Part shown: positions 35,008 to 62,953 of the stretch, in pieces
How positions within the stretch are numbered: position 1 is the stretch's first letter
How the letters are laid out: each line of letters opens with the position of its first letter
Source: Eledone cirrhosa
Lineage: Eukaryota
Assembly: GCA_964016885.1 (NCBI GenBank)
Contig: OZ024760.1
Coordinates: 17,236,001-17,300,000 of the forward strand
Reading direction: 5' to 3'
DNA length: 64,000 nt
The notes under the pieces: generated by a model
Told to the model about the DNA's origin: nothing
Databases searched by the model: none
Seen by the model: the letters and a program-made list of their open reading frames with translations, nothing else
Translations under genes and position numbers: made by a program

Positions 35008-35032
35008 ATGGATATTCCCAACCCGCCTGAAG
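35008..35032 (+). CDS. CHERP: CHERP coding exon 1 (MDIPNPPE + G, phase-1 donor)
   Basis: aacATG GAT ATT CCC AAC CCG CCT GAA G|gtgag. Splices in frame to 41876 to give MDIPNPPEDLEQKNIIDKLANFVARNGPEFE, matching the CHERP N-terminus as I recall it (MEMPLPPDDQELRNVIDKLAQFVARNGPEFE). Confidence 0.9.
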
Positions 35033-41607: not shown

Positions 41608-41875
41608 CAGTCCACGCTGTAATATGGTCGTGTAGGTAACACAGTAAAAAGCTCCCAGTCCACACTGTAAATGTGGTTGGTGTTAGGCAGGGCATCCAGC
41701 TGTAGAAAACCTGCCAGATAGTCCTATATGAGCGAGACACGGTCACCCGACCACCCTGCCTCAAATTGGGACAACTGTCGACTAACCCATGTTAGCGTGG
41801 AAGATAGACGTTAAACGATGATGATGATATAATTTATTTATCTATTTATTTTCTCTTTGTTTTTCGGGTGTTTAG

Positions 41876-42046
41876 ATCTTGAACAGAAGAATATCATTGA
41901 TAAACTGGCCAATTTTGTTGCTCGAAATGGCCCTGAATTTGAACAGATGACCAAACAGAAACAGAAGGACAATGCAAAGTTCAGTTTTCTGTTCGGAGGA
42001 GAATATTACCAATACTATCAGTTCAAAGTTAATGCTGAGCAAACAG
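41876..42046 (+). CDS. CHERP: CHERP coding exon 2, SURP/SWAP domain
   Basis: Polypyrimidine tract + tttag| acceptor; encodes (D)LEQKNIIDKLANFVARNGPEFEQMTKQKQKDNAKFSFLFGGEYYQYYQFKVNAEQT; ends ACA G|gtgag (171 nt, phase 1/1). The rest of ORF 41857-42486 is intronic repeat. Confidence 0.93.
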
Positions 42047-42305
42047 GTGAGAAAGTTGTTATTTTTCTACCTCTTTCTCTGAGCAATCAGGTGAGAGAGT
42101 TGTTATGTCTGTATCTACCTCTTTCTCTGAGCAATCAGGTGAGACAGTTGTTATGTCTGTATCTACCTCTTTCTCTGAGCAATCAGGTGAGACAGTTGTT
42201 ATGTCTGTATCTACCTCTTTCTCTGAGCAATCAGGTGAGAGAGTTGTTATGTCTGTATCTACCTCTTTCTCTGAGCAATCAGGTGAGACAGTTGTTATGT
42301 CTGTA
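42035..42305 (+). repeat. 48-bp tandem repeat made from the CHERP exon-2/intron-2 junction (5 extra CAG|GTGAG donors)
   Basis: Unit CTGAGCAATCAGGTGAGASAGTTGTTATGTCTGTATCTACCTCTTTCT; GT at 42047 (true), 42091, 42139, 42187, 42235, 42283. Confidence 0.92.
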
Positions 42306-42606
42306 TGTGTGTGTGTATATGTACCTGTGTATGTGTGTGTATGTACCTGTGTATGTGTGTGTGTGTGTGTGTGTATGTATCTGTATGTGTGTGGTGGGAT
42401 TATCTCTCACTCATCTTTATCACTTGGGTTATCTTATTGGGTTATATATTATATTTTATTGTGGGGTGAGAGGGAAGTTGAAGTAGCCTAGGGTTGTTGT
42501 TGTTGTTAGTGGTGTTGGTTGTAGGGATGGGTGTGTGTGTGGGGGGGGAGTTATATCATTTATGGTTTCTTTCTTTTTCCTTCTTCCTCCTCTTTATCAC
42601 ACCCAT

Positions 42607-42648
<42 letters not shown>

Positions 42649-42864
42649 AACATATATACACACACACATATATATATATGTGTATATATATATATATATA
42701 AATATATACACATATATATGTAAATATGTGTATGTGTATATATATATATATATACACATATATATATATATATATACACACATACACATATTTACATATA
42801 TATGTGTATATATTTATATATATATATATACATATGTATATAAGTATATAGATATAGATATATA

Positions 42865-42923
<59 letters not shown>

Positions 42924-43100
42924 ATATATATATATATATGTGTGTGTGTGTATATATATATATATATGTGTGTGTGTGTATATATATATATATATGTGTG
43001 TGTGTATATATATATATATATATGTGTGTGTATATATATATATGTGTGTGTATATATATATATATATGTGTGTGTATATATATATATGTGTGTATATATA

Positions 43101-43139
<39 letters not shown>

Positions 43140-43211
43140 ATATATATATATATATATAAAATATATGTATGTGTGTGTATATATATATATAGATAGATAT
43201 ATATGTGTGTG

Positions 43212-43245
<34 letters not shown>

Positions 43246-43735
43246 TATAAATCTGGAAGGGTGTAGTGGAGGTGAGGTGCAGTGGTGGAGTTGTTATTTC
43301 TCCACTTCACATGGTTATCATGTTTGTTATTTATGTTGGAAGTTGGAAATAGGTGAAGACAATGTTTTAACATTCAACAATTGACTCCTTACTATCTCTC
43401 TCTCTCCCTCCCTACTATCACTGTCCCTCTCTTCCTCCCTACTATCACTGTCCCTCTCTCCCTCCCTACTATCACTGTCCCTCTCTCTCCCTCCCTACTA
43501 TCACTGTCCCTCTCTCTCTCTTCCTCCCTACTATCACTGTCTCTCTCTCCCTCCCTACTATCACTGTCCCTCTCTCTCCCTCCCTACTATCACTGTCTCT
43601 CTCTCTCTCTCTTCTCCCTCCCTACTATCTCTCTCTCTCCCTCCCTACTATCACTGTCCCTCTCTCTCTCCCTCCCTACTATCACTGTCTCTCTCTCTCT
43701 TCCTCCCTACTATCTCTGTCTCTCCCTCCTCCCTA

Positions 43736-43781
<46 letters not shown>

Positions 43782-43982
43782 GCTTTCTCTCCTGCTCTCT
43801 CACTTCTACTCTCTCTCTCTCTTCTTTCTCTCTTTCATCTCTCTCTCTCTCTCTCTCTCACATACGTAGATGAATGTCTCAAGTGTTATTGAATAATGAT
43901 GGTTGTTTGCTCATAATAAGCATATACATACATGCACACATATATACATATATACATACATGCACACCCATATACATACATG

Positions 43983-44015
<33 letters not shown>

Positions 44016-45635
44016 CATCATCACCATCATTTAACATCTATCTTCCACGCTAGCATGGGTTAGACGTGAATTGTCCCATTTGAGGTACGATTGGTTGGGT
44101 GACTGTGTCTCGCTCATATAGGACTATCTGCCAGGTTTTCTACGGCTGGATGCCCTTCCTAACACCAACCACATTTACAGTGTGGACTGGGAGCCTTTTT
44201 ACCGTGTTACCTACACGGCCACATTACAGCGTGGACTGTGTTTGTTTATATATATATATATAGTAATAATGAGATAAATGTGAAGATTAAAATTCAAAGA
44301 GGGCTCGATAAGGATAATATATATATATATACATACATATATACATATACACACATATATATATATACATACATGCACATACACATACATGATGATGGTT
44401 GCAACTTGTTTTGGCCTGGATGTTGTGGTACCAGCATAAATTTACATTGAAAGGGGTGGTGTGGATGAGGTGGGGGCGTAGTGGGACATTATATATGTAT
44501 ATAATGTAAATGCAAAAAGGTTAAGCTACAGCGAGTTCAATGCTTTTTCTTGGACAGGACACCAGTCCATTATAAAGGGCAGTCCATCACAGGGCTGTCA
44601 AACACCCAACAAACTTCCTGTGTGATGCAACCTCACAGGAGGCTGGCTAAACATGTACAAGAGTGAGCTGTAATAAAAACAATAGTTATTGTAGTAGTTG
44701 TTGTTGTAGCCAGATTGTTTATCCTGCTTAGAGCTGTCAGCATTAAGACAGTTTTAACTAACTTTCCTGTCTTCAGAAGACACACACCTGTTCTCCCTCA
44801 GCCCCTCTCTTCCCCACCACCATAACTTAGAGGTGGTAGTGGTGGTGATATATATATATAACAATATTAATGAAGTTCGCTAGTATAAATACAGCATCCT
44901 TCGGCCAGTGTCTAACTCACTCAACAAATCTAGTAAATTGCAGTTATGCAGCTGCAATCACCTGTTCAGAGTGCACACAATTAGTTTTAGTTTAGAGCAT
45001 TGGCTGCGTTTTTAATTAGAGAATATATATAAGAAAAGGAATAAAAGCGACAGGAGGCTGGAAAGTTGAAATTCCTTCATGGGCTTCCTCTACTGTGTCT
45101 TCCTTCTACTGGGATTTCTTATATATATATATATATATATATATACAAATATTAATAAAGTGGGGAGACCCAAGATGACTTGGGATGAGGTGATAAAAGC
45201 CGACCTTACCCAACTACACCTCTCAAAGTCAATGACACACGACCGTGACTTCTGGCGTCACGCAGTAATACAGGGTACCCGACCTCCCATGGGTACATGC
45301 TGAAGCATATAAACAATATGCCCCCCCCCCTCCACCGCAAGGTGGCCGTGGACGTGCCACGGCAAAAAAGCACCCAGCCCACACTGTAAAGTGGACGTGT
45401 AGGCGCCACGAAAAAGCACCCAGCACTCACTGTAAATGAGGTTGGTGTTAGGAAGGGCATCCAGCTGTAGAAATCAAGCCAGATCAGTTCCTGTATGAGC
45501 AAGGCATGGTCAGCCGACCAGACACTGCCCACAACAGGACAACCCGTCTAACCCATGCTAGCGTGGAAGAACGGACGTAAAACGGTGATGATGATGATGA
45601 TGATGAATAAAATAGATGTTCTTTTGATCAATTAC

Positions 45636-45688
45636 ATTTTATTATACATATTTCGGATGTACAACAGTACGTCCTCATCAGACAAAAT
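45636..45688 (-). ncRNA. Type I hammerhead motif, family C (intact arm of ~134-bp fold-back)
   Basis: AUUUUGU CUGAUGA GGAcGUAC uguu GUACaUCC GAAA UAUGUA UA / AUAAAAU. Confidence 0.8.
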
Positions 45689-45796
45689 ATAATGATACAT
45701 GACATACCCTGAGATGTTAAATGGTTAAGATTTAATCAATCTACCTTGATTAAATCTTAACCATTTAACATCTCAGGGTATGTCATGTATCATTAT

Positions 45797-45849
45797 ATTT
45801 TGTCTGATGAGGACGTACTGTTGTACATCCAAAATATGTATAATAAAAT
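45797..45849 (+). ncRNA. Family C hammerhead, GAAA>AAAA core mutation
   Basis: Inverted copy of 45636-45688 with G>A at 45831. Confidence 0.7.
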
Positions 45850-45979
45850 GTAATTGATCAAAAGAACATCTATTTTATTAATATTTGTATTTTAATATAT
45901 ATATATATATACACACTCTATTTTGAATATTGAGTTCTTCCTCCTTTGTGGACTATGAAGGTTACTAGAACAGAACACA

Positions 45980-46035
<56 letters not shown>

Positions 46036-46722
46036 GGGACTATATATATTATGTATGTAGAAGCATGCACGTCAAGTGTATACATTAATGTTTATACATG
46101 ATTATGTGTACGTGTGCATACATAAATGATTTATGCATACATAGCTGTGTGAGTGTGTGTATATATAATGCTGAAACATTAATTCTTTCAAGAGAATGAG
46201 GAAGGGTGTACTCAATACATAGTGCGGAGTGTCTGATTTATTTCAGCTGAATTTTCTTTTTTGTTAATGAAACAGTGAGAAAGATAATTTAATATAATTA
46301 TATCATCATCATCAATTAATGTCTATCTTCCACGTTAGCATGGGTTAGATGGGTTTGTCCCATTTAGAGGCAAGTTGGGTCGGGTGACTGTCTCGTTTAT
46401 ATAGGAGAGTTTCTGGCTGGTTTTCTACGGCTGGATGCCCTTCCTAATGCCAACCACATTGACAGTGTGTGCTAAGTGCTTTTTGCCGTGTCTTTTATAC
46501 GTCCACTTTACAGTGTGGGCTGGATGTTATATACATATATACACACATGGTCTATATATAGCTACCTACCTAGGATGGGTAAAATTCACGAGATCCATGG
46601 GCGAGTTCTCTCCAACGGTCTCCATCCCTCATCATCACTGCTATTTCCTGCGACTCCAACAGACCTGTGTCTGTCCTCAGGGCATCAACATACACATATG
46701 ATATATATATATATATATTTAA

Positions 46723-46941
46723 CCCTTTAGCATTTACATTACTCTATATATACTATTGTATTTTCACAGTAAAGGCTTTATCTTATATAATTATCACACA
46801 ATATCGAATCTATGAGATTTTGATATTATTTATTTTCAGAACAATACTTTAACATCAGTATGAGTGGCTAGTTAGGGTTGGTGTGAACAGAAAGAGGTGA
46901 GAAAATTCTGGCTGGTTACGGCCGGCTTGAATGCTTAAGGG
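46723..46941. mobile_element. piggyBac-type MITE (same family; also 48336-48556 and truncated 56638-56790)
   Basis: TTAA TSDs, CCCTTTAGCATT TIRs, shared interior. Confidence 0.85.
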
Positions 46942-46955
46942 TTAATATAGAAATG

Positions 46956-47005
46956 GCTTCTACAGGACTAGAACTGTTTTATTCGAAGGAAATCATCAGG
47001 AAAGC
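46956..47005 (-). ncRNA. Family A hammerhead, GAAA>AAAA core mutation
   Basis: GCUUUC CUGAUGA uUUC cuuc GAAu aAAA CAG uucuaguc CUG UA / GAAGC. Further partial family A copies at ~8268-8310 (-) and ~14912-15017 (+). Confidence 0.65.
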
Positions 47006-47429
47006 TATGTATTGAGTACTTTACTTACTGTGGTTACCCCCGATTGAACCCTGGATACACACACACACACACATAAATATATATATATAGTTGCATATAC
47101 ACACATATACATACACATATATAGACATAGAAATATATATATATATATATAATATATATATATCATCATCATCATCGTTTAACGTCCATCTTCCACGCTT
47201 GCATGGGTTTGTATATATATATATATGTAGAAACCTTATCAAATTCAGCAATTTGAGATGTCATGTGAAGGTCAATGGCACTGTCCCTCTTCACCTGATT
47301 AAGTGTGGAAAACACATCTAAATAATAATAATAGCTCTTATCTTGCATTTACCTTTGTTCAGGTATTTTTGTTTTCTTTTCAATTTTTATCTTTTGTTTA
47401 TCTCCTCTTGCAATTTGCTGGCTACTCAA

Positions 47430-47970
47430 CATCACCATATTTCTGGGTACACATCACCATATTTCTGGGTACACATCACCATATTTCTGGGTGCACATCA
47501 CCATATTTCTGGGTACAGCATCACCATATTTCTGGGTACAGCATCACCATATTTCTGGGTACACATCACCATATTTCTGGGTACAGCATCACCATATTTC
47601 TGGGTATATATCACCATATTTCTGGGTACAGCATCACCATATTTCTGGGTACACATCACCATATTTCTGGGTACACCATCACCATATTTCTGGGTACAGC
47701 ATCACCATATTTCTGGGTACACATCACCATATTTCTGGGTACAGCATCACCATATTTCTGGGTACAGCATCACCATATTTCTGGGTACAGCATCACCATA
47801 TTTCTGGGTATATATCACCATATTTCTGGGTACAGCATCACCATATTTCTGGGTACAGCATCACCATATTTCTGGGTACAGCATCACCATATTTCTGGCT
47901 ACACATCACCATATTTCTGGGTACACACCACCATAGTACTGGGTACACAACATCACAATATTTCTGGGTA
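47430..47970. repeat. 22-23-bp minisatellite
   Basis: CATCACCATATTTCTGGGTACA(G). Confidence 0.95.
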
Positions 47971-48998
47971 CTTGTACCCCATAAGTTGTTACATACATGT
48001 ACTAAATGAGAAAAACTGAAAATTACAGGTCACATCTTTATAAGTTTAACTGGCCTTTTGGGTATATGAATGATAGAGTCCCTAGTCCTCTTATGTAGGT
48101 ATATATGTATATATGTATGAAGAAAACCCCCTTTGATGACGAATGACCATTGGGGTAGTAGAGTATGGTTATATTATAAAGAGTTGGGGCCTGACGGCTG
48201 AGCTCTGCCGTTTCAACAGCTAGTTCCAGACTCTCTTTCTCTATATATATATCTTGTTATTACACTTCACCCCTATCTAGGTTTAGCTGGTCTCCTACAT
48301 GGCTGTATCCCATAAGTTTCTCTTGTGTTTTTTAACCTTTTAGCATTGACATTGCTCTATATTTACTATTATATTTTCACGGTAAAGACTTAACCTCACA
48401 TAATTATCTCACATAATATTGAATCTATGAAATTTTGATGTTATTTATTTTGAGAACAATACCTTAACATCAGTATGAGCGGCCAGTTACAGTCGGTTTG
48501 AACAGAAAGAAGTAAGAGTATTCTGGCTGGATATGGCCAGTTTAAACTCTAAAGGGTTAATGGTATGTCCCCAGTCCTATCATGAAAAGCAATGTGAAAG
48601 AGGAATGCAATATGCTTCCTAGTCTAGGAATTAAACCCATGATCCTATGGTTGTCAGCCCAATGCCGTAACCAATGGGCCACACATGTGTATGTGTGTAT
48701 TGAAAGGACACCTGTGTTAGACCTGGGAATTAAATCAAGGTTAGCTGTCAACTTTGACACCAAAACACACCATTTCTATGCTATATATATACACTTTGTT
48801 GTACATTTTTAGCTGTTATCTACTAATGATATAAATAAGAGTCTATCTTGCTATTTATTCCAGCTTTCCTTCTTGTTTCTGTGTGACTAAGTAAGGAGGT
48901 GATGTTAGGGTTAACTGATTGGTGGTGCAGCTACCCTTATCTATAATGGGAGGGAGGTGGTAGGGTATTATATATATATATAATACCATACCACCAAG

Positions 48999-49187
48999 GG
49001 CGGTGAATTGGCAGTATCAGTAGAGGGTCGGACGCCATGCTTTCCAGCATAGTTACGTCCCTTTACGATCTGAGTTCAAATCCCACCGAGGTTGACTTTG
49101 CCTTTCATCCTTACGGGGTCGATAAAATAAAGTACCAGTAATGCACTGGGTTATTGCTGGCCTTGTGCCTATAGTAGAAACAATTAT
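48999..49187 (+). mobile_element. Octopus-type tRNA-derived SINE, full length; other copies 19601-19786(-), 23226-23378(+), 24700-24958(+), 32339-32525(+), 33150-33305(-), fragments at 13.7, 14.1, 18.3, 25.3, 29.2, 30.7 and 61.4 kb
   Basis: A-box-like TGGCAGTATC.GTAG, B-box GAGTTCAAATCC, body TTTGCCTTTCATCC..CGGGGTCGATAAAATAAAGTACCAG, tail GGCCTTGTGCC.AAAGTAGAAAC. Confidence 0.85.
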
Positions 49188-49436
49188 ATATATATATATA
49201 TACACATACATATCAAAGGTTAGAAACTCAAAATAGTCTCTTACAATTATATAGCTCAAGGAAAAAGAGTTTTCCAAGCCGTGTAATATAATTGAATATA
49301 AAAGAGAGATAAACACAGATATATACATATATGTGTTCAAATTGTAAGGGACCAGATTCGCTAGGGTGAAAAAAGTACTAACTATGAACAATAGGGTTTG
49401 CCAGACTCAAGAATAAATCAAGAAAAGAAATACAAA

Positions 49437-50940
49437 CTTTAGTTGTGATACCTACACAACCACTTTACAGTGTGGACTGGGTACTTTAGTTGTGATACCT
49501 ACACAACCACCTTACAGTGTGGACTGGGTACTTTAGTTGTGATACCTACACAACCACCTTACAGTGTGGACTGGGTACTTTAGTTGTGATACCTACACAA
49601 CCACCTTACAGTGTGGACTGGGTACTTTAGTTGTGATACCTACATGACCACTTTACAGTGTGGACTGGGTACTTTAGTTGTGATACCTACACAACCACCT
49701 TACAGTGTGGACTGGGTACTTTAGTTGTGATACCTACACGACCACTTTACAGTGTGGACTGGGTACTTTAGTTGTGATACCTACATGACCACTTTACAGT
49801 GTGGACTGGGTACTTTAGTTGTGATACCTACACAACCACTTTACAGTGTGGACTGGGTACTTTAGTTGTGATACCTACACAACCACCTTACAGTGTGGAC
49901 TGGGTACTTTAGTTGTGATACCTACACAACCACCTTACAGTGTGGACTGGGTACTTTAGTTGTGATACCTACATGACCACTTTACAGTGTGGACTGGGTA
50001 CTTTAGTTGTGATACCTACACAACCACTTTACAGTGTGGACTGGGTACTTTAGTTGTGATACCTACACAACCACCTTACAGTGTGGACTGGGTACTTTAG
50101 TTGTGATACCTACACAACCACTTTACAGTGTGGACTGGGTACTTTAGTTGTGATACCTACACAACCACCTTACAGTGTGGACTGGGTACTTTAGTTGTGA
50201 TACCTACACAACCACCTTACAGTGTGGACTGGGTACTTTAGTTGTGATACCTACACAACCACCTTACAGTGTGGACTGGGTACTTTAGTTGTGATACCTA
50301 CACAACCACTTTACAGTGTGGACTGGGTACTTTAGTTGTGATACCTACATGACCACTTTACAGTGTGGACTGGGTACTTTAGTTGTGATACCTACATGAC
50401 CACTTTACAGTGTGGACTGGGTACTTTAGTTGTGATACCTACATGACCACTTTACAGTGTGGACTGGGTACTTTAGTTGTGATACCTACACAACCACTTT
50501 ACAGTGTGGACTGGGTACTTTAGTTGTGATACCTACATGACCACTTTACAGTGTGGACTGGGTACTTTAGTTGTGATACCTACACAACCACCTTACAGTG
50601 TGGACTGGGTACTTTAGTTGTGATACCTACACAACCACCTTACAGTGTGGACTGGGTACTTTAGTTGTGATACCTACACAACCACCTTACAGTGTGGACT
50701 GGGTACTTTAGTTGTGATACCTACATGACCACTTTACAGTGTGGACTGGGTACTTTAGTTGTGATACCTACATGACCACTTTACAGTGTGGACTGGGTAC
50801 TTTAGTTGTGATACCTACACGACCACCTTGCAGTGTGGACTGGGTACTTTAGTTGTGATACCTACACAACCACCTTACAGTGTGGACTGGGTACTTTAGT
50901 TGTGATACCTACACAACCACCTTACAGTGTGGACTGGATG
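49437..50940. repeat. 47-bp satellite (~32 units) related to SINE internal repeat
   Basis: TTTAGTTGTGATACCTACACAACCACYTTACAGTGTGGACTGGGTAC. Confidence 0.95.
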
Positions 50941-50950
50941 TTTTTTATAT

Positions 50951-50998
<48 letters not shown>

Positions 50999-51000
<2 letters not shown>

Positions 51001-51342
51001 AGGCACATGGCTTAGTGGTTAGAGCATTGGCCTTGCAATCGAAAGGTTGTGAGTTCAATTCTCAGACTGGGTGATGTGTTGTTTCCTTGAGCAAGACACT
51101 TTATTTCACATTGCTCCAGTTTACTCAGCTGTAGAAATGAGATGATAGGGACTGGGGTCCCTATCATTCCACTGCAGAGTGGTCGTGGAGGTGCCATGGC
51201 AAAAAAGCACCCAGCACTCACTGTAAATGAGGTTGGTGTTAGGAAGGGCATCCAGCTGTAGAAATCAAGCCAGAATCAGTTCCCGTCCCACCCTTGCAAG
51301 CAGGGAAAAGCGGACGTAAAATGATGATGATGATGATGATGA
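50999..51342 (+). mobile_element. Second tRNA-derived SINE family with RTE-type (GAT)n tail; head copy at 2603-2768, tail copies at 41605-41828, 44015-44238(-), 45330-45605, 46303-46525(-), 54990-55163, 58036-58207(-)
   Basis: TGGCTTAGTGGTTAG A-box, GAGTTCAATTC B-box, CCTTGAGCAAGACACTTTATTTCAC core, GGTGTTAGGAAGGGCATCCAGCTGTAGAAA...GGACGTAAAA(TGA)n tail. Confidence 0.8.
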
Positions 51343-51599
51343 TTGGAAGAAGAGATGTTAATCTCAAAATATCAGGACATATGAATAAATTAAGGTAAAA
51401 AAATACCCCTCGTTTCTTACGACTTCATTATTTATCTGTCCAATCAGCATTGATGTGGCTGGAGAGATATTTTAAGGCTCCCAAATGCCGACTTGTATGC
51501 CGGCATATACCATAGTTACAGTTACAACAAAGTATTCTAATTCAATTTTCAAATTCCGCTTGCTGTTTGCTTAACACACATGCTTTCTTAATATATACA

Positions 51600-52980
51600 A
51601 GTGGTGGTGGTGGTGGTGGTAATGGTGGCGGGGGTGTTGGTAATGGTGGTGGGGGTGGTGGTGGTGTTGGTAGTGGTAGTGGTGGTGGTGGTGGTGGTGT
51701 TGGTAATGGTGGTGGTGGTGTTGGTAGTGGTGGTGGTGGTGGTGGTGGTGCTGGTGGTGGTGTTGGTGGTGGTGGTAGTGGCGGTGCTGTTGTTGGTGTT
51801 GGTGGTGGTGGTGGTGTTGGTAATGGTGGTGTTGGTGTTGGTAGTGGTGGTGGTGGTGGTGGTGGTGGTAGTGGTGGTGGTGGTGGTGTTGGTAGTGGTG
51901 TTGGTAGTGGTAGTGGTGGTGGTGGATGTGCCGTTGTTGTTGGTGGTGGTGGTGGTGGTGGTGTTGGTGGTGGTGGTGTTGGTAGTGGTAGTGGTGGTGG
52001 TGGTGGTGGATGTGCCGTTGCTGTCGGTGCTGTTGTTGGTGGTGGTGGTGGTGGTGGTGGTGGTGGTGGTGTTGGTAATGGTGGTGCTGGTGGTGGTGTT
52101 GGTAGTGGTGGTGGTGGTGGTGGTGGTGGTGTTGGTAATGGTGGTGCTGGTGGTGGTGTTGGTAGTGGTGGTGGTGGTGGTGGTGGTGGTGGTGGTGGTG
52201 GTGTTGGTAATGGTGGTGCTGGTAGTGGTGGTGGTGGTGGTGGTGTTGGTAGTGGTGGTGGTGGTGGTGGTGGTGGTGGTGGTGGTGGTGGTGTTGGTGG
52301 TGGTGGTGGTGGATGTGCCGTTGTCGGTGGTGGCGGTGCTGTTGTTGGTGGTGGTGGTGGTGTTGGTGGTGGTAGTGGTGGTGGTGGTGGTGTTGGTAGT
52401 GGTAGTGGTGGTGGTGGTGGTGGATGTGCCGTTGCTGTCGGTGGTGGCGGTGCTGTTGTTGGTGGTGGTGGTGGTGGTGTTGGTAGTGGTGGTGTTGGTA
52501 GTGGTGGTGGTGGTGGTGGTGGTGTTGGTAGTGGTGGTGGTGGTGGTGTTGGTAGTGGTGTTGGTAGTGGTAGTGGTGGTGGTGGATGTGCCGTTGTTGT
52601 TGGTGGTGGTGGTGGTGGTGGTGTTGGTAGTGGTGGTGGTGGTGGTGTTGGTAGTGGTAGTGGTGGTGGTGGTGGTGGATGTGCCGTTGCTGTCGGTGGT
52701 GGCGGTGCTGTTGTTGGTGGTGGTGGTGGTGGTGGTGGTGTTGGTAGTGGTGGTGTTGGTAGTGGTGGTGGTGGTGGTGGTGGTGTTGGTAGTGGTGGTG
52801 GTGTTGGTAGTGGTGGTGGTGGTGGTGGTGGTGGTGGTGGTGGTGGTGGTGGTGGTGGTGTTGGTAGTGGTGGTGGTGGTGGTGGTGTTGGTAGTGGTGG
52901 TGGTGGTGGTGGTGGTAGTGTTGGTAGTGGTGGTGGTGGTGGTGGTGTTGGTAGTGGTGGTGGTGGTGGTGGTGGTGGTA
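51600..52980. repeat. Interrupted (GGT)n tract
   Basis: Directly visible; source of the poly-G/P/T/V ORFs. Confidence 0.95.
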
Positions 52981-53030
52981 TAATTACTGCTGTTGGGAAG
53001 AAAGCCAAGTGTTCCATGTGTAATCATTCA

Positions 53031-53081
<51 letters not shown>

Positions 53082-53867
53082 TAATCACAGGTAAATTACT
53101 CACCCACCTCACCCTATCCCACCCCGCTTGGTAAAGTATTGAATCCGGTTTACCTGGCAGGTTTTTTATTATTTTTTTACCTGATCCAGGGATGACAGCC
53201 ACCATTTTTCCATCTCACTTTCAGTAAGATTGGGGTGGGGTGGGGTAGACCACCACCCCGGGGGAGGGGGTAGACCACCACCCGGGGGGGGGGGTCTGCT
53301 AAAGGTGAAGGAGTGGAGTGGGGGGGTTGTTTAGTCAGTCTGCTAGAGATGTAGCTCGGCTACACATATATATATATATATCCATTCATCATCTACTGAT
53401 GATAGTGGTGGTGGTGGTGGTGTGGTGGTGGTGGTGTGGTAGTGGTGGTGGTGGTGGTGGTGTGGTGGTGGTGTGGTAGTGGTGGTGGTGGTGGTGGTGG
53501 TGATTGTTGTGGTGGTGGATTTGATGGTAAGGGTTATAGTGATGGTGGTTGTGTTGGATATGGTGATAGTGATTGTTGTGGTGGTGGTGGTGGTGGTGGT
53601 GTTGATTGTTGTGGTGGTGTGGTGGTGGTGGTGGTGGTGGTGGTTGTAGTTATTGTTGTGTTGGTGGCAGGAGTTGATGTGGTGATAGTGATTGTTGTTG
53701 TTGTGGTGGTGGAGGTAGTTATTGTAGTGGTGATAGTAGCGGTGGTGGTTGTGGTGATAGTAGTGATTTTTGTGGTTTAGGTTGTAGTTATTGTAGTGGT
53801 GGTGAATGTGTTGGTGTAGGTGGTGAATGGGAGAGGATCTGTCTGCTGATGATGTCAGATGGAATCT

Positions 53868-54437
53868 ACCCCCCTCCCTACCTCACCTGACTATTCCACA
53901 CCCTCAATCTACCCATATATTCCCTGGGGTGGCAGTATTACCCCCTCCCTACCTCACCAGACTATTCCACACCCTCAATCTACCCACATATTTCATGGGG
54001 TGGCAGTATTACCCCCCTCCCTACCTCACCTGACTATTCCACACCCTCAATCTACCCATATATTCCCTGGGGTGGCAGTATTACCCCCTCCCTACCTCAC
54101 CAGACTATTCCACACCCTCAATCTACCCACATATTTCATGGGGTGGCAGTATTACCCCCCTCCCTACCTCACCAGACTATTCCACACCCTCAATCTACCC
54201 ACATATTTCATGGGGTGGCAGTATTACCCCCCTCCCTACCTCACCAGACTATTCCACACCCTCAATCTACCCACATATTCCCTGGGGTGGCAGTATTACC
54301 CCCTCCCTACCTCACCAGACTATTCCACACCCTCAATCTACCCACATATTCCCTGGGGTGGCAGTATTACCCCCTCCCTACCTCACCAGACTATTCCACA
54401 CCCTCAATCTACCCACATATTCCCTGGGGTGGCAGTA
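53868..54437. repeat. ~70-bp tandem repeat (8 units)
   Basis: CCCCTCCCTACCTCACC.GACTATTCCACACCCTCAATCTACCCA.ATATT.C.TGGGGTGGCAGTATTA. Confidence 0.95.
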
Positions 54438-55504
54438 TGTCTGCAGAAAGTAGCAAAGAATGGAAGCTACTCTCTTTTCATTGATTCTTAGTTTTTACTT
54501 CCTGGCTTCAAGTTTGTTTGCTTCTTTCATGCTTCCATCACTCTGATATCCCGGGGGAGAAAGGCCTCTACACCCTACAACACCTTATGCACCCTCACAC
54601 CCTCCATATTCTACACCCTATATATAACATATATATACCCTCGCACCCACCTTTTTATATTCTATACCCTATATATAACATCTATATAATCTCACACCAA
54701 CCTTATATATACCCAATATATAACATATATATATATCCTCACACCTTCCATATTATACACCCCATATATAACATATATATACACCCTCACACCCTCCATA
54801 TTCTATACCCTATAGTACACCTATAGCCTCACACTTTTCATATACTAGTGGTTAGGGTGTTGGACTCTCAATCATAAGGGTATGGGTTTGGGTTCCTGGA
54901 GTGGGTAGTAGATTATGTTTTTGATCGAGAGGCTTCAAGTAACCATTGCAATGGACTGGTGTCTGCTCCAGGAGAATGGGGGGCCCCTATACTCACTGTA
55001 AATGAGGTTGGTGTTAGGAAGGGCATCCAGCTGTAGAAATCGAGCCAAAATCAGTTCCCGTATGAGCAAGACATGGTCACCTGACCTGATATTGCTCACA
55101 ACAGGACAACCATGCTAGCGTGGAAGAATGGATGTAAAACGGTGATGATGATGATGATGATGATATATATATATATATGAACTATTAACATACTAGAAAT
55201 ATTCAGCAGTGTGTTTGCTATCTTTTGTTCAGAATTGATTATATCATATGTAGGACAGCCTGAGAATTGAACCAGATGTTCTCTGTTTACAGCACGTGAT
55301 CCTTCTATATTATGGCGTCTCACCATTATTCATTGAGTCTATCACAAATAACCTCAATTTAATTTTATTTTTCCATCAGTTATTTGTTTCTGCTTGAATA
55401 CATGTTTATTATGTTGTTGTTGTTACATACTAGGTCAGCCATAAACAAGTACGCCTATGGCATGTAGCTAGTCAGTCAAGCAACCCGTCCACGTGACTCT
55501 AGAT

Positions 55505-55685
55505 CACGGTTTCCCAAAATGGGTTCTGCAGAGCCTAAGAGTTCCGCAAATGGGTGTCTGGGGTTCTGTGAAAAAAAAGGTAGAGGTGTATATTTATATT
55601 ACAACCATATAACAGTATTAGAATTTGAGGTTAACCCCAAAAGTTTCTGAACCAAAAAGGGTTTGAAAAAGTTTGGCAAACCCTG
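55505..55685. mobile_element. hAT MITE
   Basis: CACGGTTTCCCAAA / TTTGGCAAACCCTG TIRs, TSD CTCTAGAT/ATCTAGAT. Confidence 0.75.
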
Positions 55686-57458
55686 ATCTAGATATACAAT
55701 GTTTTTGACGGGTTAAGGACCTTCTCTTTGCATTCCACCATACAGTTTTTTCCCTCAACCATGTCTGTTTGCTGCTGTATAATTGTGGTCGTTGTTTAGC
55801 TTCAGTTTAGCCTTGACCCAAACATGTTCCAGCTGTGACCAACTTGTATTTACTTCAGACATAGTGTAGCTAGGATAAAATGTGCCAAGTACATTGGTTG
55901 ACTATAAACAGAGACTATCTAGGGAGGAAGGGAGTCTGCACCCTTGTTGAGGACATGACACTCCCTTTAGTGCTGTATCCAGTACACTCTCTCATCTTCT
56001 TAACACTCCATAACACTTGAACTAACTATGCTGTCCTGGTGATGTTTAGGTTTATATTTACTACTGTTAACTCTCTACTCTGAACCAGGCAGATTTTACT
56101 GGCAAAACTAATGGATAGAATCTGAGCAAGTTTGTTGGATAACATCCATGAGCTCGGCTGGTTTTGCTTAGGGATCCAGCTCGATCAATTGGAGACTGTT
56201 GCTTCTGACAGGACCTTCTGGAAGGCATGCCTGCCTGGCTTGACAGATTTTATAAGCAAAACAAAATGACAGGAGACACAGGGATAGAATCTGAGCAAGA
56301 TAGTAAGATAATATCTATGAGCTCGGCTGGTCTTGGTTGACGATTTAGCTGGATCAATTGGGGACAGTTGCTTGTGACAGGACCTACTGGAAAGCGTGCT
56401 TCAGGATTCTGCCTCCACAACCTTCTCAGGAATAAGCAGACAGAAGAAGTAGAATTCGGTACTCAGTGACTGCCAAGCAGGAGTGGCCTTATATAACAAA
56501 CAGAGGCCGTATGACAAGGTTTAAACTGTCATGCTTCAGTGACCGTGTTTATAGTTAAATATATGATATTAAGTAAACATGTTTACTGTTGCTGTAAAGA
56601 AATATATTTTCATGAGTAGATGAGAGCTCGAGGTTAACTCTTTAGCATTTACATTACTCTATATTTACTGTTATATTTTCATGGTAAAGGCTTTACCTCA
56701 CATAATATCGAATCTATGAGATTTTGATGTTATTTCTTTTGAGAACACTACCTTAACATCAGTATGAGTGGCCAGTTATGGTCAGTTTGAATTTTCGTTA
56801 CGATGAATTTTTTTTCATATTCTGTGAATTTCATTATAAGTGTGGTAAGGAACCAGGTGGACCATAACGCACGAGAGTACTCGATCCTTTATAAGATGAC
56901 CTCTCTAGTGCTGGTGGCACGAATAAAAGCACCCGGTCCATGCTGTAAAGTGGTGCTGGTGTTAGGAAGGACATCCAACCAGTATATATACTACTGCCAA
57001 AAACTATGAGTACAACAAAATGAGAATTTCACTGTATTTGGAGAGCACTTTAAATAAAAAAGAGTGCACACATCAGATGGGTTGTTTCTGTGACTCAGAT
57101 TTAGTTCTGTTTCTACCTCTACACCTTCCCACACCTGTTACCTCAATGCTTTTTAATGTTTGTAATAAAATTGACTCCAATGTAAATTGCTTTACCTTGT
57201 GGTATACATGATGTCAGCGAAGGTAAATTACTTTACCTGTTGCACACCTGACGTCAACTGCCTCACCTGTAACACCTGATATCTGCTGAAGTTAATTACA
57301 TATTGACAGATAGTCATGCAGAAAGTGATAAAGCCATTTCAGTGTTTTGTTAGTGAAATTGTTTGTCACTGATTTTTTGAATATATATAAGTACATGTGT
57401 TTATGGGCGGGGTCAGTGAGGCCTCCTATCATTTTATTCAAAATAATATATATATATA

Positions 57459-57503
<45 letters not shown>

Positions 57504-57880
57504 GCAGTAATTCCGTCGGAAAAGTCCAGGAAAAAAGAGTGCTCTATGTAGGTTACGGAGCTTAATAATAAGAGTTATGTAATAAACAACATAAGATAAT
57601 TATTTCATTTACCAGTGGTTTCTTGAAAGCAAAAGAAATTTGCTTTCAGTCCCGTATATATATATATATATATATAACGAAAGAAATGTGGTAAGGAACC
57701 AGGTGGACCATAACACACCAAAGTACTCAATACTTAGGGTAGTAGAGTGGGTAATAAGAATGAGTAGGACCCCGACGGCTGAGCTCAACCCGTTTCGACG
57801 GCTAATTCTGGACTACTAATTCTAGTCCAGAATTAGCCGTCGAAACGGCTTGAGCTCAGCCATCGGGGGTCCTACTCGTT

Positions 57881-57918
<38 letters not shown>

Positions 57919-58206
57919 ATAGGTGGATTCACAATGGGTATAGATAAACAAACAGATAGATAGTTAGATATGTATGAGAGACAGACTGATAGATAGATAG
58001 ATAGATAGGGATAAACAGATAGATACTTATATATATCATCATCATCATCGTTTAACGTCCATCTTCCACGCTAGCATGGGTTAGACGGGAGTTGTCCCAC
58101 TTGAGGCAAGGCTGGTCGGGTGACCGTGTCTCGCTCATATAGGACTGTCTGGCAGGTTTTCTACGGCAGGATGCCCTTCCTAACACCAACCACATTTACA
58201 GTGTGG

Positions 58207-58247
<41 letters not shown>

Positions 58248-59669
58248 ATGATGATGATGATAAAGAGAGAGAGAGAGTGGTAGACTGTGGTATGGTGACA
58301 TAAACAAAGTGTAAATATGAAAACCAGTCCTGCTCACACTGCAGTCATAACAGTAAAAATGGCTGATGCAGCTGCACTTAGTTACACCTATACTTCTTGT
58401 TGTTGTCACTACAGTTTGTAATGTTGTTACTGTTGTTGTTGTTGTTGCTGTCACTGTTGTTGTTACTGTCACTGATGTCGTTGTTGTCACCAATGTTGTT
58501 GTTGTTACTGTTGTTGCTGTACCAATATCTGGTGTTATTGTTGTTACTGTTGTTGTTGCTGTCACTGTTGTTGTTGTCGTTGTCGTTACCATTGTTGTTA
58601 CTGTTGTACCAATGCCTGGTGTTATTGTTGTTACTGTTGTTGTTGTTACTGTTGTTGTTGTTGTTACTGTTGTTGTACCAATGCCTGCTGAGTTCAGTAG
58701 AAAACAACAGATGCACTTGATCAATATCTGGCCCACTTCTCTCTTACTACTACCACCACCACCACTACTACTGCTTCTACTACTGGCACTACTACAGCCA
58801 CTACCACCGCCTCTACTACTACCTCTACTACTACCACTCCTACCACTGTTAATACCACCTCTACCACTGCCACCTCTACCACTACCACCTCTGCATTTAT
58901 GGTTGACGACTGATAGAAAAGTGTACTCAATACCGAAGTAGTTTCAATGTTCTATAGTTAGGACAACATAGTCCAAGGTGTCACTCATTTTCCATAACAG
59001 TAGGAGAGTAATTTGAAGGAAACTCGGTTGTTATTTCTAGCAGGTTGTGGTAAATGGCAGTGTTGTTGATGATGTTGTTATGTTCACTTTGCAGTAGTTC
59101 TATCTCCTGACTAATCTACGTTAAACCCCTTTTCTCTCTCTCACCCCATCCCATTCCCACCCCACTGCACCCCATCTCCACCCCTGTATCATCAATATGA
59201 TGACTCAGCAGTAAACAACATCGCATCATGTCTGCTTGCTGCATAGTTACCAGCATCCCTTTTTTTACATCCATATCTTGCTTTCATCTACCCAGCCACC
59301 GTTTCACATTTCTCTCCATCTACCCAGCCACCCAGCCTCATTTCCCTCTATCTACCCAACCATCTAGCCACTTTTCTCTCCATCTACCCAGCTATCTAGT
59401 TACCATCCTTCCAGATACCCACCACTCCATCCACACCCCTCAATCTACCCAGTTCTCCAGCCCCATTTCCTTCCATCTACCCAACCACATAGCACTTGTC
59501 CCTCCATCCAGTCTAGTTTATCATCCTTCCATATATCCAGTACTTCACCCACACTTCGCTCCATCTATCCAATTACCATCCCTGCATCTATCCAGCTATC
59601 CAGCCCTATTTTTTCCCTTCCACCTACCCTGTCACCCAGCATTCCACCCACATTTACCTCCACCCTCCA

Positions 59670-60234
<565 letters not shown>

Positions 60235-60307
60235 TAGATAACACCTGGTCATTAGTCTAGAAGTCACTGAACGTTTGGACATACATCAGATCGCTTGTAT
60301 AACCTGA

Positions 60308-60349
<42 letters not shown>

Positions 60350-60501
60350 TCAAATCTCTTATGTAAAATATAGTTAATTTATATTGTATAACTTGAGTGT
60401 CTATATATATATATATGTAAGGTAAACAGAAATAACAACACAATCAGTACAGTATATGGAAGGGATACATTAGATTAACGCTTGATATAGCAGGAAGAGG
60501 G

Positions 60502-60537
60502 TCTTAACGTTTTGGATGCTAGTCCTTCATCAGAAGA
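60502..60537 (-). ncRNA. Minimal hammerhead motif, family E (core G>A)
   Basis: UCUU CUGAUGA aGGA cuagca UCC aAAACGUU / AAGA; palindromic AACGUU stem III. Confidence 0.55.
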
Positions 60538-60639
60538 AAGAATGAGAAATAAGATAGATTGAGGGGACGGGCGGGGTGGAATTGGAAAAAATGTCTTTAG
60601 ATAAAAATAACAGGTCCATTCATGTTGACATCTCTTGCA

Positions 60640-60671
<32 letters not shown>

Positions 60672-60826
60672 AGATTCAGGACTTCGACAGCTAGATCCAA
60701 ACTAACGAAACGGCCGGAGCTCAGCCGTCGGGGGGTCCTGAATCTTTTCATATAACCCACTCTACTACCCCAAGTATCGAGTACTCTGGTGGGTTATGGT
60801 CCACTTGGTTTCTACCACACCCTATT

Positions 60827-60910
<84 letters not shown>

Positions 60911-61246
60911 CCAGTGGTATGTTATATACCCTCAAATCTCTTAAAATATAGTAAAATGATGATGATGATGATATGTTATATATACTCTAGAAAGGAAATA
61001 AATTGTGAGATTTCCAAAAAATGTATCTTTAAAACTTTCTTCACTCTCTCTCTATATATATATATCATCATCATCATCATCATTTTATGTCCGCTTTTCC
61101 CTGTTTGCAAGGGTGGGACATATATATATATATATATATATATAGTATTTAAAAAAAAAAAAAAAATACAACAGATTCATATAAATTAATCTATATTATT
61201 CAAATAGTTTAGAACCAGAAGGAAAAATAATGTAAAAATTTAAAAA

Positions 61247-61291
<45 letters not shown>

Positions 61292-61878
61292 ATCTCTCTC
61301 TCTTCATGGCTCTCTTCCTCTCTATCCATCTTTCTCTTGTTGATGTTTCTTACAATAATAGATTTAATATTTTTCAAGAAAACTAACCATTACTACTGCT
61401 TCTATGGTTGCTCTTTAACTTTAACGATTAAATAAAGTACCAGTAATGTACTGTGGGTAATTGCTGGCCTTGTGCCAAAAGTAGAAACAATTATATATAT
61501 ACACTCATACACACACATATACGCTCACACATATACACACACACATATATATATATATATATACTTTTCGTTGCCTTCATTTTACCATCCATTTCACATT
61601 GTCTTAGCTTTCTTATATATAACTTTCTACATTATATACTATACATAATGCTTCTGGAAATTGTTGTTTAACCCCAGGTCAGCCATGACCAAGCAGATGT
61701 ATGATTAAAGGTGTCAACTGCTTTAATAATTCAAATAGCTTTTAAAAAGTGGGAGATTGAGCAGCGGTGGGTGATTTAATTTTCTTTTCCACACTTCATT
61801 ACCATTGAGTTTGTTTCTGTGTATATTTACCTGTCATTCATGTATGTCTACCTATCATTCATGTGTGTATATATTCCA

Positions 61879-61909
<31 letters not shown>

Positions 61910-62208
61910 CATAGTTTCATTAATTTTTCCGTTGTCTTCACCCACATTTTTTATTCATTATATATATGTGTGTGTGTATATACAGACATATATATATATA
62001 TGTATATATATATGTGCAGATTTATATGTATGTATATATACACAGGGTATCACCAAAAAATGTATACACACTTCAACAGCAGTCTAATAAATAGTGCTTG
62101 TACAGGTAATCAAAATGTGTATACATTTTTTGGGGACACCCTAAATATATATGTATGTATGTATGTATGTATATATATATACACATATATATATATATAT
62201 ACACACAC

Positions 62209-62298
<90 letters not shown>

Positions 62299-62382
62299 AC
62301 ATATACACACATGTATATATATATACACATATATATATACATATACACACGTATATATATATACACAGATGTATATATATAA

Positions 62383-62425
<43 letters not shown>

Positions 62426-62427
62426 TG

Positions 62428-62458
<31 letters not shown>

Positions 62459-62459
62459 G

Positions 62460-62493
<34 letters not shown>

Positions 62494-62953
62494 TATATGT
62501 ATATATATATACATGTATATATATATATACACATATATATATATATACACATGTATATATATATATACACATATATATATATATACACATGTATATATAT
62601 ATATATGCATGTATGTATACATACATACAAATATATATATATATATGTATGTATGTATACATACATACAAATATATATATTTATATATCATGCTGTCCTT
62701 CATTTTCCTGCCATATTGTTGCTCCTTTAAAGCTGTCACCTTATTAACTGTTGGTTTTATCTTTCTGTTAAAGGTTTTCTGCAAAGTCCTCACATTGTTC
62801 CTGAGTCTGGTCCACATTTCCATTATCAGGGTCCTCCTAGCTGCCTCCTCAGTGGTAATGTGTGTTTTGTCTCATTCCATGGCCTCTCATGCTATATATA
62901 TATGTATATATATATAATATATAAGATCAAAAGATGGTTAAAAGAGTTCCAAA

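What the first reader, a model, noticed from the sequence alone, without database searches (positions are those of the whole stretch)
42035..42305. Tandemly amplified splice-donor array after CHERP exon 2
Seen: the exon/intron junction has been copied five times. The first extra donor is +44 nt and the rest add 48 nt, so all five CAG|GTGAG sites are shifted out of the phase of the true donor, with no stop codon before them. Each is preceded by a pyrimidine tract and CAG, giving the AG|GT form of a recursive-splicing site. Known: CHERP is a U2-associated splicing factor, and such factors often autoregulate through unproductive splicing and NMD. Inference: a copy-number-tunable decoy/poison donor array, or a tolerated accident.
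Basis: partly seen in the sequence, partly recalled or inferred. Interest (0 to 1): 0.7.

Follow-up and report, generated by a model that had tools for sequence, protein, structure and literature searches.

The report
Repeated splice donors in octopod CHERP
In an octopus-like animal's CHERP splicing-factor gene, a 48-base repeat has copied the end of exon 2 and its splice signal five more times into the intron; the one transcript assembly examined uses the first signal, so the copies are likely a tolerated accident of a kind already known from human and lancelet genes.

Summary
A 48-bp minisatellite (42035-42306, 5.8 copies) spans the exon 2/intron 2 border of an octopod CHERP gene. It leaves five extra donors at +44, +92, +140, +188 and +236, all frameshifting, with no stop before them; use would put a stop 31 nt into exon 4.

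The regulatory reading is not supported. The one spliced contig from the same species leaves the genome at the first donor. AG|GT comes automatically with copying a donor (93 of 163 donors end in AG). As acceptors the copies score below all 17 true CHERP acceptors tested. Common phase follows from a unit of 16 codons. This 95-kb gene holds 12 homogeneous minisatellites, and 2 of 162 other donors also have a nearby copy.

This is the arrangement of human F7 intron 7 and amphioxus 'mirages', where the most upstream donor wins; the scan has noted it before in other genomes (LIG1, RPL12). Low-level or NMD-hidden use cannot be excluded: no raw RNA reads, no NMD block and no relatives' DNA were available. 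Verdict: new member of a known kind, likely inert.

The parts
35008..35032 (+). CHERP first coding exon (ATG to phase-1 donor)
   Evidence: same N-terminus as cuttlefish CHERP P0002
41876..42046 (+). CHERP exon 2, 171 nt, phase 1/1, SURP domain
   Evidence: spliced contig of run X4 lies on 41874-42048 with 0 differences
42035..42306 (+). 48-bp minisatellite, 5.8 copies. The first unit holds the last ~12 nt of exon 2 and the start of intron 2 and is 44 nt long; later units differ from each other at one position
42047..42048 (+). authentic donor GT of intron 2
42091..42092 (+). pseudo-donor 1 (+44)
42139..42140 (+). pseudo-donor 2 (+92)
42187..42188 (+). pseudo-donor 3 (+140)
42235..42236 (+). 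pseudo-donor 4 (+188)
42283..42284 (+). pseudo-donor 5 (+236), in the last, incomplete unit
42047..62773 (+). intron 2, 20,727 nt, rich in other micro- and minisatellites
62774..62854 (+). CHERP exon 3, 81 nt, begins with GT

Best explanation
A 48-bp minisatellite spans the exon 2/intron 2 border of an octopod CHERP gene and repeats the splice donor five times; the copies are likely silent pseudo-donors that the spliceosome passes over in favour of the first, making the array a probably neutral by-product of repeat turnover. Shown: the array, its phase, the premature stop that use would cause, and one spliced contig that leaves at the first donor. Inferred history: one local duplication of the border came first (unit 1 differs from the rest by three changes, and the copies keep a Ser codon like Argonauta and cuttlefish while the real exon has Thr). 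The second unit then expanded or was homogenised recently (one variable position among five copies). Inferred mechanism: the most upstream donor wins, as shown for human F7 intron 7, helped by its full exon context and by one extra possible U1 pair at +7. Any rare slip would be frameshifted and probably removed by NMD.
For: RNA-type run X4: one 2,056-nt contig lies on 41874-42048 with 0 differences and continues for 1,851 letters unlike the genome. The 2-nt overhangs match the end of exon 1 (AG) and the start of exon 3 (GT). The gene is 37% tandem repeat, with 12 homogeneous minisatellites in 95 kb; the crude expectation that one starts on a donor is 0.13. 2 of 162 other donors have a near-copy of their own junction within 400 nt against 0.04 in swapped controls, both in myosin genes, and TRF shows 2 more candidates. 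AG|GT occurs at 93 of 163 donors. There is no fold beyond shuffles (z -0.19). Precedents: F7, LMNB2 and PDGF use only the authentic donor (PMC1557585); amphioxus mirages do not disturb splicing and show the same boundary-versus-interior turnover (PMC3087553).
Against: The RNA evidence is one contig from one run whose library type is not on record. Contigs drop rare forms, NMD would hide them, and the 1,851 onward letters were not displayed. None of the 162 control donors had five intact copies. All five copies keep the same -3..+6 9-mer as the true donor. In human 6-16 and CBS, two pseudo-sites are used besides the authentic one (PMC1557585 introduction). The F7 rule was tested in mammalian cells, not molluscs. 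No relative's DNA covered the exon, so age and conservation are untested.
Confidence: 0.78

Rival explanations
1. Leaky but unregulated use. The nearest one or two copies are used in a minority of transcripts, as in human CBS and 6-16, giving NMD substrates and slightly lowering CHERP output in proportion to copy number, with no feedback.
For: Identical 9-mer donors. No in-frame stop before them. Products end 31 nt into the 323-nt exon 4. Human precedents for use of the two nearest pseudo-sites.
Against: The X4 contig runs through the first donor without a break. In F7, normal use of pseudo-sites was not detected even when their match to consensus was raised to 91.
Confidence: 0.12
2. Regulated poison-donor array. 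CHERP or its SPF45/SR140 complex shifts donor choice to the copies, coupling its own level to NMD, with copy number tuning the set point.
For: All copies frameshift and would be NMD substrates. CHERP's complex regulates alternative splicing, including alternative 5' sites (PMC8594467 passages). Many splicing factors autoregulate this way (general knowledge).
Against: Common phase is forced by a 48-nt unit, and 2 of the 3 frames of the unit are open anyway. Only three changes separate unit 1 from the rest, so sparing of the donor 9-mer carries no sign of selection (inference). No CHERP poison event surfaced in two searches; the cross-regulation described is at protein level. Similar duplications occur in myosin genes. 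Exon-2 read-through proteins of the cuttlefish type stop right after the donor (5 of 5), so the first unit's open frame is not shared with them.
Confidence: 0.05
3. Recursive (ratchet) splicing. Exon 2 is first joined to an AG|GT copy, regenerating the donor, so the array is removed stepwise and the mRNA is normal.
For: AG|GT juxtaposition with an upstream pyrimidine run. The intron is long (20.7 kb). The final mRNA would look the same as the X4 contig.
Against: Acceptor scores are 1.8 for the first copy and -0.5 for the other four, against 3.4-9.7 for 17 of 17 true CHERP acceptors, and 6.5% of 917 intron-2 AGs score as high. Drosophila recursive sites have 3' motifs stronger than ordinary acceptors (PMC6110457 passage). 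The first step would need a 44-nt intron. Removing at most 236 of 20,727 nt does not subdivide the intron. Better AG|GT candidates lie at 53091 and 47363.
Confidence: 0.03
4. Assembly artefact: the repeat was created or inflated in assembly.
For: No read or contig spanning the whole array was seen.
Against: Unit 1 differs from the others, and the later units alternate at one position. A DNA contig identical to 41805-42095 includes the first extra donor, and further contigs cover later units.
Confidence: 0.02

Closest known systems
Human F7 intron 7 37-bp VNTR (Borensztajn et al. 2006, PMC1557585; read abstract, synopsis, introduction, first results section and discussion)
   Same: The first monomer spans the exon-intron border. 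A handful of identical pseudo-donors follow (4-8 there, 5 here). Only the most upstream donor is seen in the mRNA.
   Different: The unit is 48 nt with about 12 exonic nt (37 nt with 4 exonic nt in F7). All copies here share one shifted phase. The first unit has diverged from the rest. Polymorphism and silent-but-functional status are shown for F7 and untested here.
Human 6-16 (IFI6), CBS IVS13, LMNB2 and PDGF border-spanning minisatellites (as summarised in the introduction of PMC1557585; primary papers not read)
   Same: Same architecture of reiterated donors.
   Different: In 6-16 and CBS two pseudo-sites are used besides the authentic one; no such use was seen here, at low sensitivity.
Amphioxus 'mirages' in Adh3 and globins BflGb6/BflGb9 (PMC3087553; passages)
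   Same: Invertebrate tandem duplications of exon-intron borders that leave splicing intact, with interior units homogenised and boundary units excluded.
   Different: There, haplotypes differ in copy number (6 versus 3); here one assembly only. Here the host gene is a splicing factor in a mollusc.
Recursive splice sites / ratchet points of Drosophila long introns (PMC6110457; passages)
   Same: AG|GT juxtaposition inside a long intron.
   Different: The 3' motif is weak here and strong there; the sites here lie 44-236 nt from the donor; they are explained as copies of a donor that already ended in AG.
Poison exons / unproductive splicing of SR and hnRNP splicing factors (recalled, not read here)
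   Same: A frameshifting alternative event in a splicing-factor gene that would trigger NMD.
   Different: Those are typically highly conserved and detectably used; here a young repeat with no detected use and no shown conservation.

Membership tests
Border-spanning minisatellite (F7 IVS7 / mirage type) | Tandem array whose first unit spans an exon-intron border | tested here: met
Border-spanning minisatellite (F7 IVS7 / mirage type) | Splice signal reiterated in the downstream units | tested here: met
   5 of 5 copies keep the -3..+6 9-mer
Border-spanning minisatellite (F7 IVS7 / mirage type) | Authentic (most upstream) donor gives the main mRNA | tested here: met
   one contig of run X4 leaves at 42048; single run, minor forms invisible
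Border-spanning minisatellite (F7 IVS7 / mirage type) | Copy-number polymorphism between alleles | not tested
Recursive splice site | Juxtaposed AG|GT | tested here: met
   but 93 of 163 ordinary donors have it
Recursive splice site | Strong 3' splice-site motif | tested here: not met
   scores 1.8 and -0.5 versus 3.4-9.7 for 17 true acceptors; home-made model, biased against an upstream AG
Recursive splice site | Junction or lariat intermediates in nascent RNA | not testable with these tools
   only assembled contigs were available
Autoregulatory poison splicing event | Use creates a premature stop upstream of later junctions | tested here: met
   stop 31 nt into exon 4 of 323 nt for all five
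Autoregulatory poison splicing event | Isoform detectable, stabilised by NMD block, responsive to the factor's level | not testable with these tools
   no raw RNA reads or perturbation data
Autoregulatory poison splicing event | Sequence conserved across species | tested here: inconclusive
   runs X5 and X6 did not cover the exon; cuttlefish-type read-through proteins stop right after the donor, DNA beyond not seen; no other octopod DNA found

The most novel reading that the evidence does not exclude
A young minisatellite has given a core splicing factor a ready-made, copy-number-tunable poison switch. The five out-of-frame donors are used at a low rate that responds to CHERP/SPF45/SR140 levels and is hidden by NMD, showing how an autoregulatory loop can arise in one mutational step.
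Probability: 0.05. Interest if true: 0.7.

Novelty: new member of a known kind. Interest (0 to 1): 0.2.

Why it matters
As it most likely stands, it is one more natural example of identical tandem donors where the first is used. It extends the F7/mirage pattern to a cephalopod and offers a compact minigene for testing whether upstream-first donor choice holds in molluscs. The control suggests that junction duplication touches roughly 1-2% of donors in this genome, so such arrays should be expected by annotators and not read as regulation. It would matter more if NMD-hidden, CHERP-responsive use were found, because it would show autoregulation arising from a repeat.

Tried and rejected
(1) Run X4 has no contig depth on 42052-42291. 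Not counted as evidence, because contigs drop rare forms.

(2) Relatives. Runs X5 and X6 were laid for array presence but matched only a high-copy element upstream and a microsatellite, not exon 2.

(3) Three protein searches (best 120 listed of 321, 240 and 266 hits) returned no other octopod CHERP except Argonauta and no protein with the array-encoded extension.

(4) I first read the cuttlefish 12-residue optional insert at this junction (4 of 5 cluster members) as a downstream in-frame donor. Five genomic read-through proteins with the cuttlefish-type exon end stop two residues after it, so a separate small exon or alternative acceptor is more likely unless they come from another species. 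No convincing match to the insert was found in this intron.

(5) Among 120 short read-through proteins, 1 had a repeated 5-mer, unrelated to the exon end. This is a weak test.

(6) RNA structure masking the copies: z -0.19, rejected.

(7) A dispersed family: a DNA search of the own genome gave one place, and the junction pattern was in 1 of 142 loci. Both are lower bounds.

(8) Literature: no paper on octopus intron minisatellites at splice sites (2 unrelated hits) or on a CHERP poison event (listings, one paper read in passages). Supplements were not consulted.

(9) Earlier scan notes near this place: none.

Full report
Observation. Tandem Repeats Finder reports one array at 42035-42306 with period 48, 5.8 copies and 96% matches. 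The motif CAG|GTGAG occurs six times in the window, all here, with GT at 42047, 42091, 42139, 42187, 42235 and 42283. Offsets from the first are 44, 92, 140, 188 and 236, each 2 mod 3, and the coding frame is open across the array until a stop at 42484. A DNA run of the same species holds a contig identical to 41805-42095, including the first extra donor. It may be the assembly's own source, so it argues against an artefact but says nothing on polymorphism.

The gene. The exon at 41876-42046 encodes a SURP module and is 98% identical to Argonauta hians CHERP and 95% to cuttlefish CHERP, so the organism is most likely an octopod. Exon 1 has its ATG at 35008 and exon 3 is 62774-62854. The rest of the gene continues beyond the window on the same contig, and it is the only full match in the genome search. 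Exons 1-7 join into an open frame that follows the Argonauta protein. Intron 2 is 20,727 nt.

Consequence of use. Splicing any of the five copies to exon 3 shifts the frame and ends translation 31 nt into the 323-nt exon 4, with or without exon 3. By the usual junction rule these would be NMD substrates; that cephalopods follow the rule is assumed.

Which donor is used. Run X4 (same species, another sample, 88 million letters of contigs, library not on record) has one 2,056-nt contig at depth 23.6. It lies on 41874-42048 with no differences and continues unlike the genome for 30 letters on one side and 1,851 on the other. The two-base overhangs fit the AG at the end of exon 1 and the GT at the start of exon 3, so I infer a spliced exon 1-2-3 transcript using the first donor. 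The onward letters were not shown. Contigs drop rare forms and NMD would deplete them, so this shows the main product only.

Are the special features special? The common phase follows from a unit of 16 codons, and two of the unit's three frames are open. AG|GT follows from copying a donor: 93 of 163 donors examined end in AG. As acceptors the copies are weak. A matrix trained on 164 heuristically chosen acceptors from myosin and kinesin exons scores them 1.8 (first) and -0.5 (other four), against 3.4-9.7 for 17 of 17 true CHERP acceptors, and 6.5% of 917 AGs in intron 2 score as high. The pyrimidine run is separated from the CAG by a short purine-rich stretch with another AG. The training choice penalised upstream AGs, which biases the model against the copies, and about 5% of training sites scored as low. 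Recursive sites in flies have unusually strong 3' motifs (PMC6110457, passages). The region folds no better than shuffles (z -0.19). All six donors share the -3..+6 9-mer; the true one has one more match at +7 to a recalled U1-complement consensus.

Background rate. 37% of the 95-kb gene lies in tandem repeats, and 12 arrays have period 20-150, at least 4 copies and at least 90% matches. A crude expectation that one of them starts on one of 19 donors is 0.13. For an outside control I took 178 of the 179 myosin and kinesin exon matches in this genome (one antisense duplicate left out) and called donors heuristically with a rough matrix from general knowledge. 144 distinct donors passed, and I added the 19 CHERP donors. 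Besides this locus, 2 of 162 have a copy of their own 18-nt junction (at most 3 mismatches) within 400 nt downstream, against 0.04 in swapped controls; one of the two copies scores as well as the true donor. TRF and inspection show two more candidates that this test missed, a 24-nt and a 51-nt duplication over myosin exon ends. None has five intact copies, so this case is at the upper end of a recurring process, not outside it. Donor calls are unverified by RNA, and some kinesin loci are near-identical paralogues.

History (inferred). Unit 1 differs from the later units at -4, at +7 and by a 7-to-3-nt replacement; the later units differ from each other at one position. The copies encode Ser at the last full exon codon, as Argonauta and cuttlefish do, whereas the real exon has Thr. 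The simplest reading is an older single duplication, a later coding change in the exon, and a recent expansion of unit 2. Three changes in 48 nt have no power to show selection on the 9-mer.

Known systems. Borensztajn et al. 2006 (PMC1557585; abstract, introduction, first results section and discussion read) describe the human F7 intron 7 VNTR, whose first 37-bp unit spans the border. Four to eight identical pseudo-donors follow, are functional when upstream sites are destroyed, and are otherwise silent. The same introduction lists LMNB2 and PDGF (only the authentic donor used) and 6-16 and CBS (two pseudo-sites also used). The amphioxus globin paper PMC3087553 (passages) describes 'mirages' that leave splicing intact, vary in copy number and homogenise interior units. 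I reached the second paper through an earlier scan note; the scan has recorded the same arrangement in several other genomes (unchecked notes, one of which reports use of the last copy). On CHERP itself, PMC8594467 (passages) describes mutual stabilisation of SPF45, SR140 and CHERP proteins, with mRNAs affected only by their own knockdown. Two searches surfaced no CHERP poison event; the library lacks most subscription papers.

Against my reading. The RNA evidence is thin. Human precedents for partial use exist. No control donor had as many intact copies. No relative's DNA was obtained: runs X5 and X6 missed the exon, and cuttlefish-type read-through proteins stop right after the donor, which shows only that the open first unit is not shared with them.

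Verdict. A real, accurately described border-spanning minisatellite: a new member of a known kind, most likely inert (0.78), possibly leaky (0.12), unlikely a regulated poison array (0.05), recursive sites (0.03) or an artefact (0.02). Interest 0.2.

Noticed in passing
window 53091 and 47363 (intron 2): Two AG|GT sites with acceptor scores 6.7 and 4.9, in the range of true acceptors; 53091 lies near the middle of the 20.7-kb intron. They are better recursive-site candidates than the array. No RNA evidence; no match to the cuttlefish insert.
   Followed up: partly
cuttlefish CHERP cluster P0002, P0121-P0124, at the exon 2/3 junction: An optional in-frame 12-residue insert (4 of 5 members). Genomic read-through proteins of the same type stop right after the donor, suggesting a small cassette exon or alternative acceptor.
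   Followed up: partly
window 62774-62854: Exon 3 (81 nt, symmetrical phase 1, weak donor score 1.0) encodes a segment present in Argonauta and cuttlefish but not evident in Mytilus or chiton CHERP: a candidate cephalopod-specific cassette exon.
   Followed up: no
window about 41610-41830 and 49436-50937: A very high-copy SINE-like element ends about 45 nt upstream of the exon 2 acceptor (thousands of contigs). The 47-nt x 32 array in intron 2 looks by eye like the reverse complement of part of it.
   Followed up: no
L017 (G000:C6:96149764-96149997), L019 (C5:20234717-20235046), L026 (C3:145259478-145259693), L139 (C6:99955519-99955749): Myosin exons whose donor region is locally duplicated into the intron; in L017 a copy at +109 scores as well as the true donor.
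   Followed up: partly
G000:C21 about 17302371, 17325724 and 17337116 (L002, L004, L005): The same 48-nt minisatellite unit, unrelated to the donor array, is amplified at three separate places in CHERP introns 3 and 4 (6.9, 14.9 and 8.2 copies).
   Followed up: no
G000:C21:17341182-17348164 (L006): A 53-nt x 132 array (7 kb, 96% matches) fills half of CHERP intron 7.
   Followed up: no
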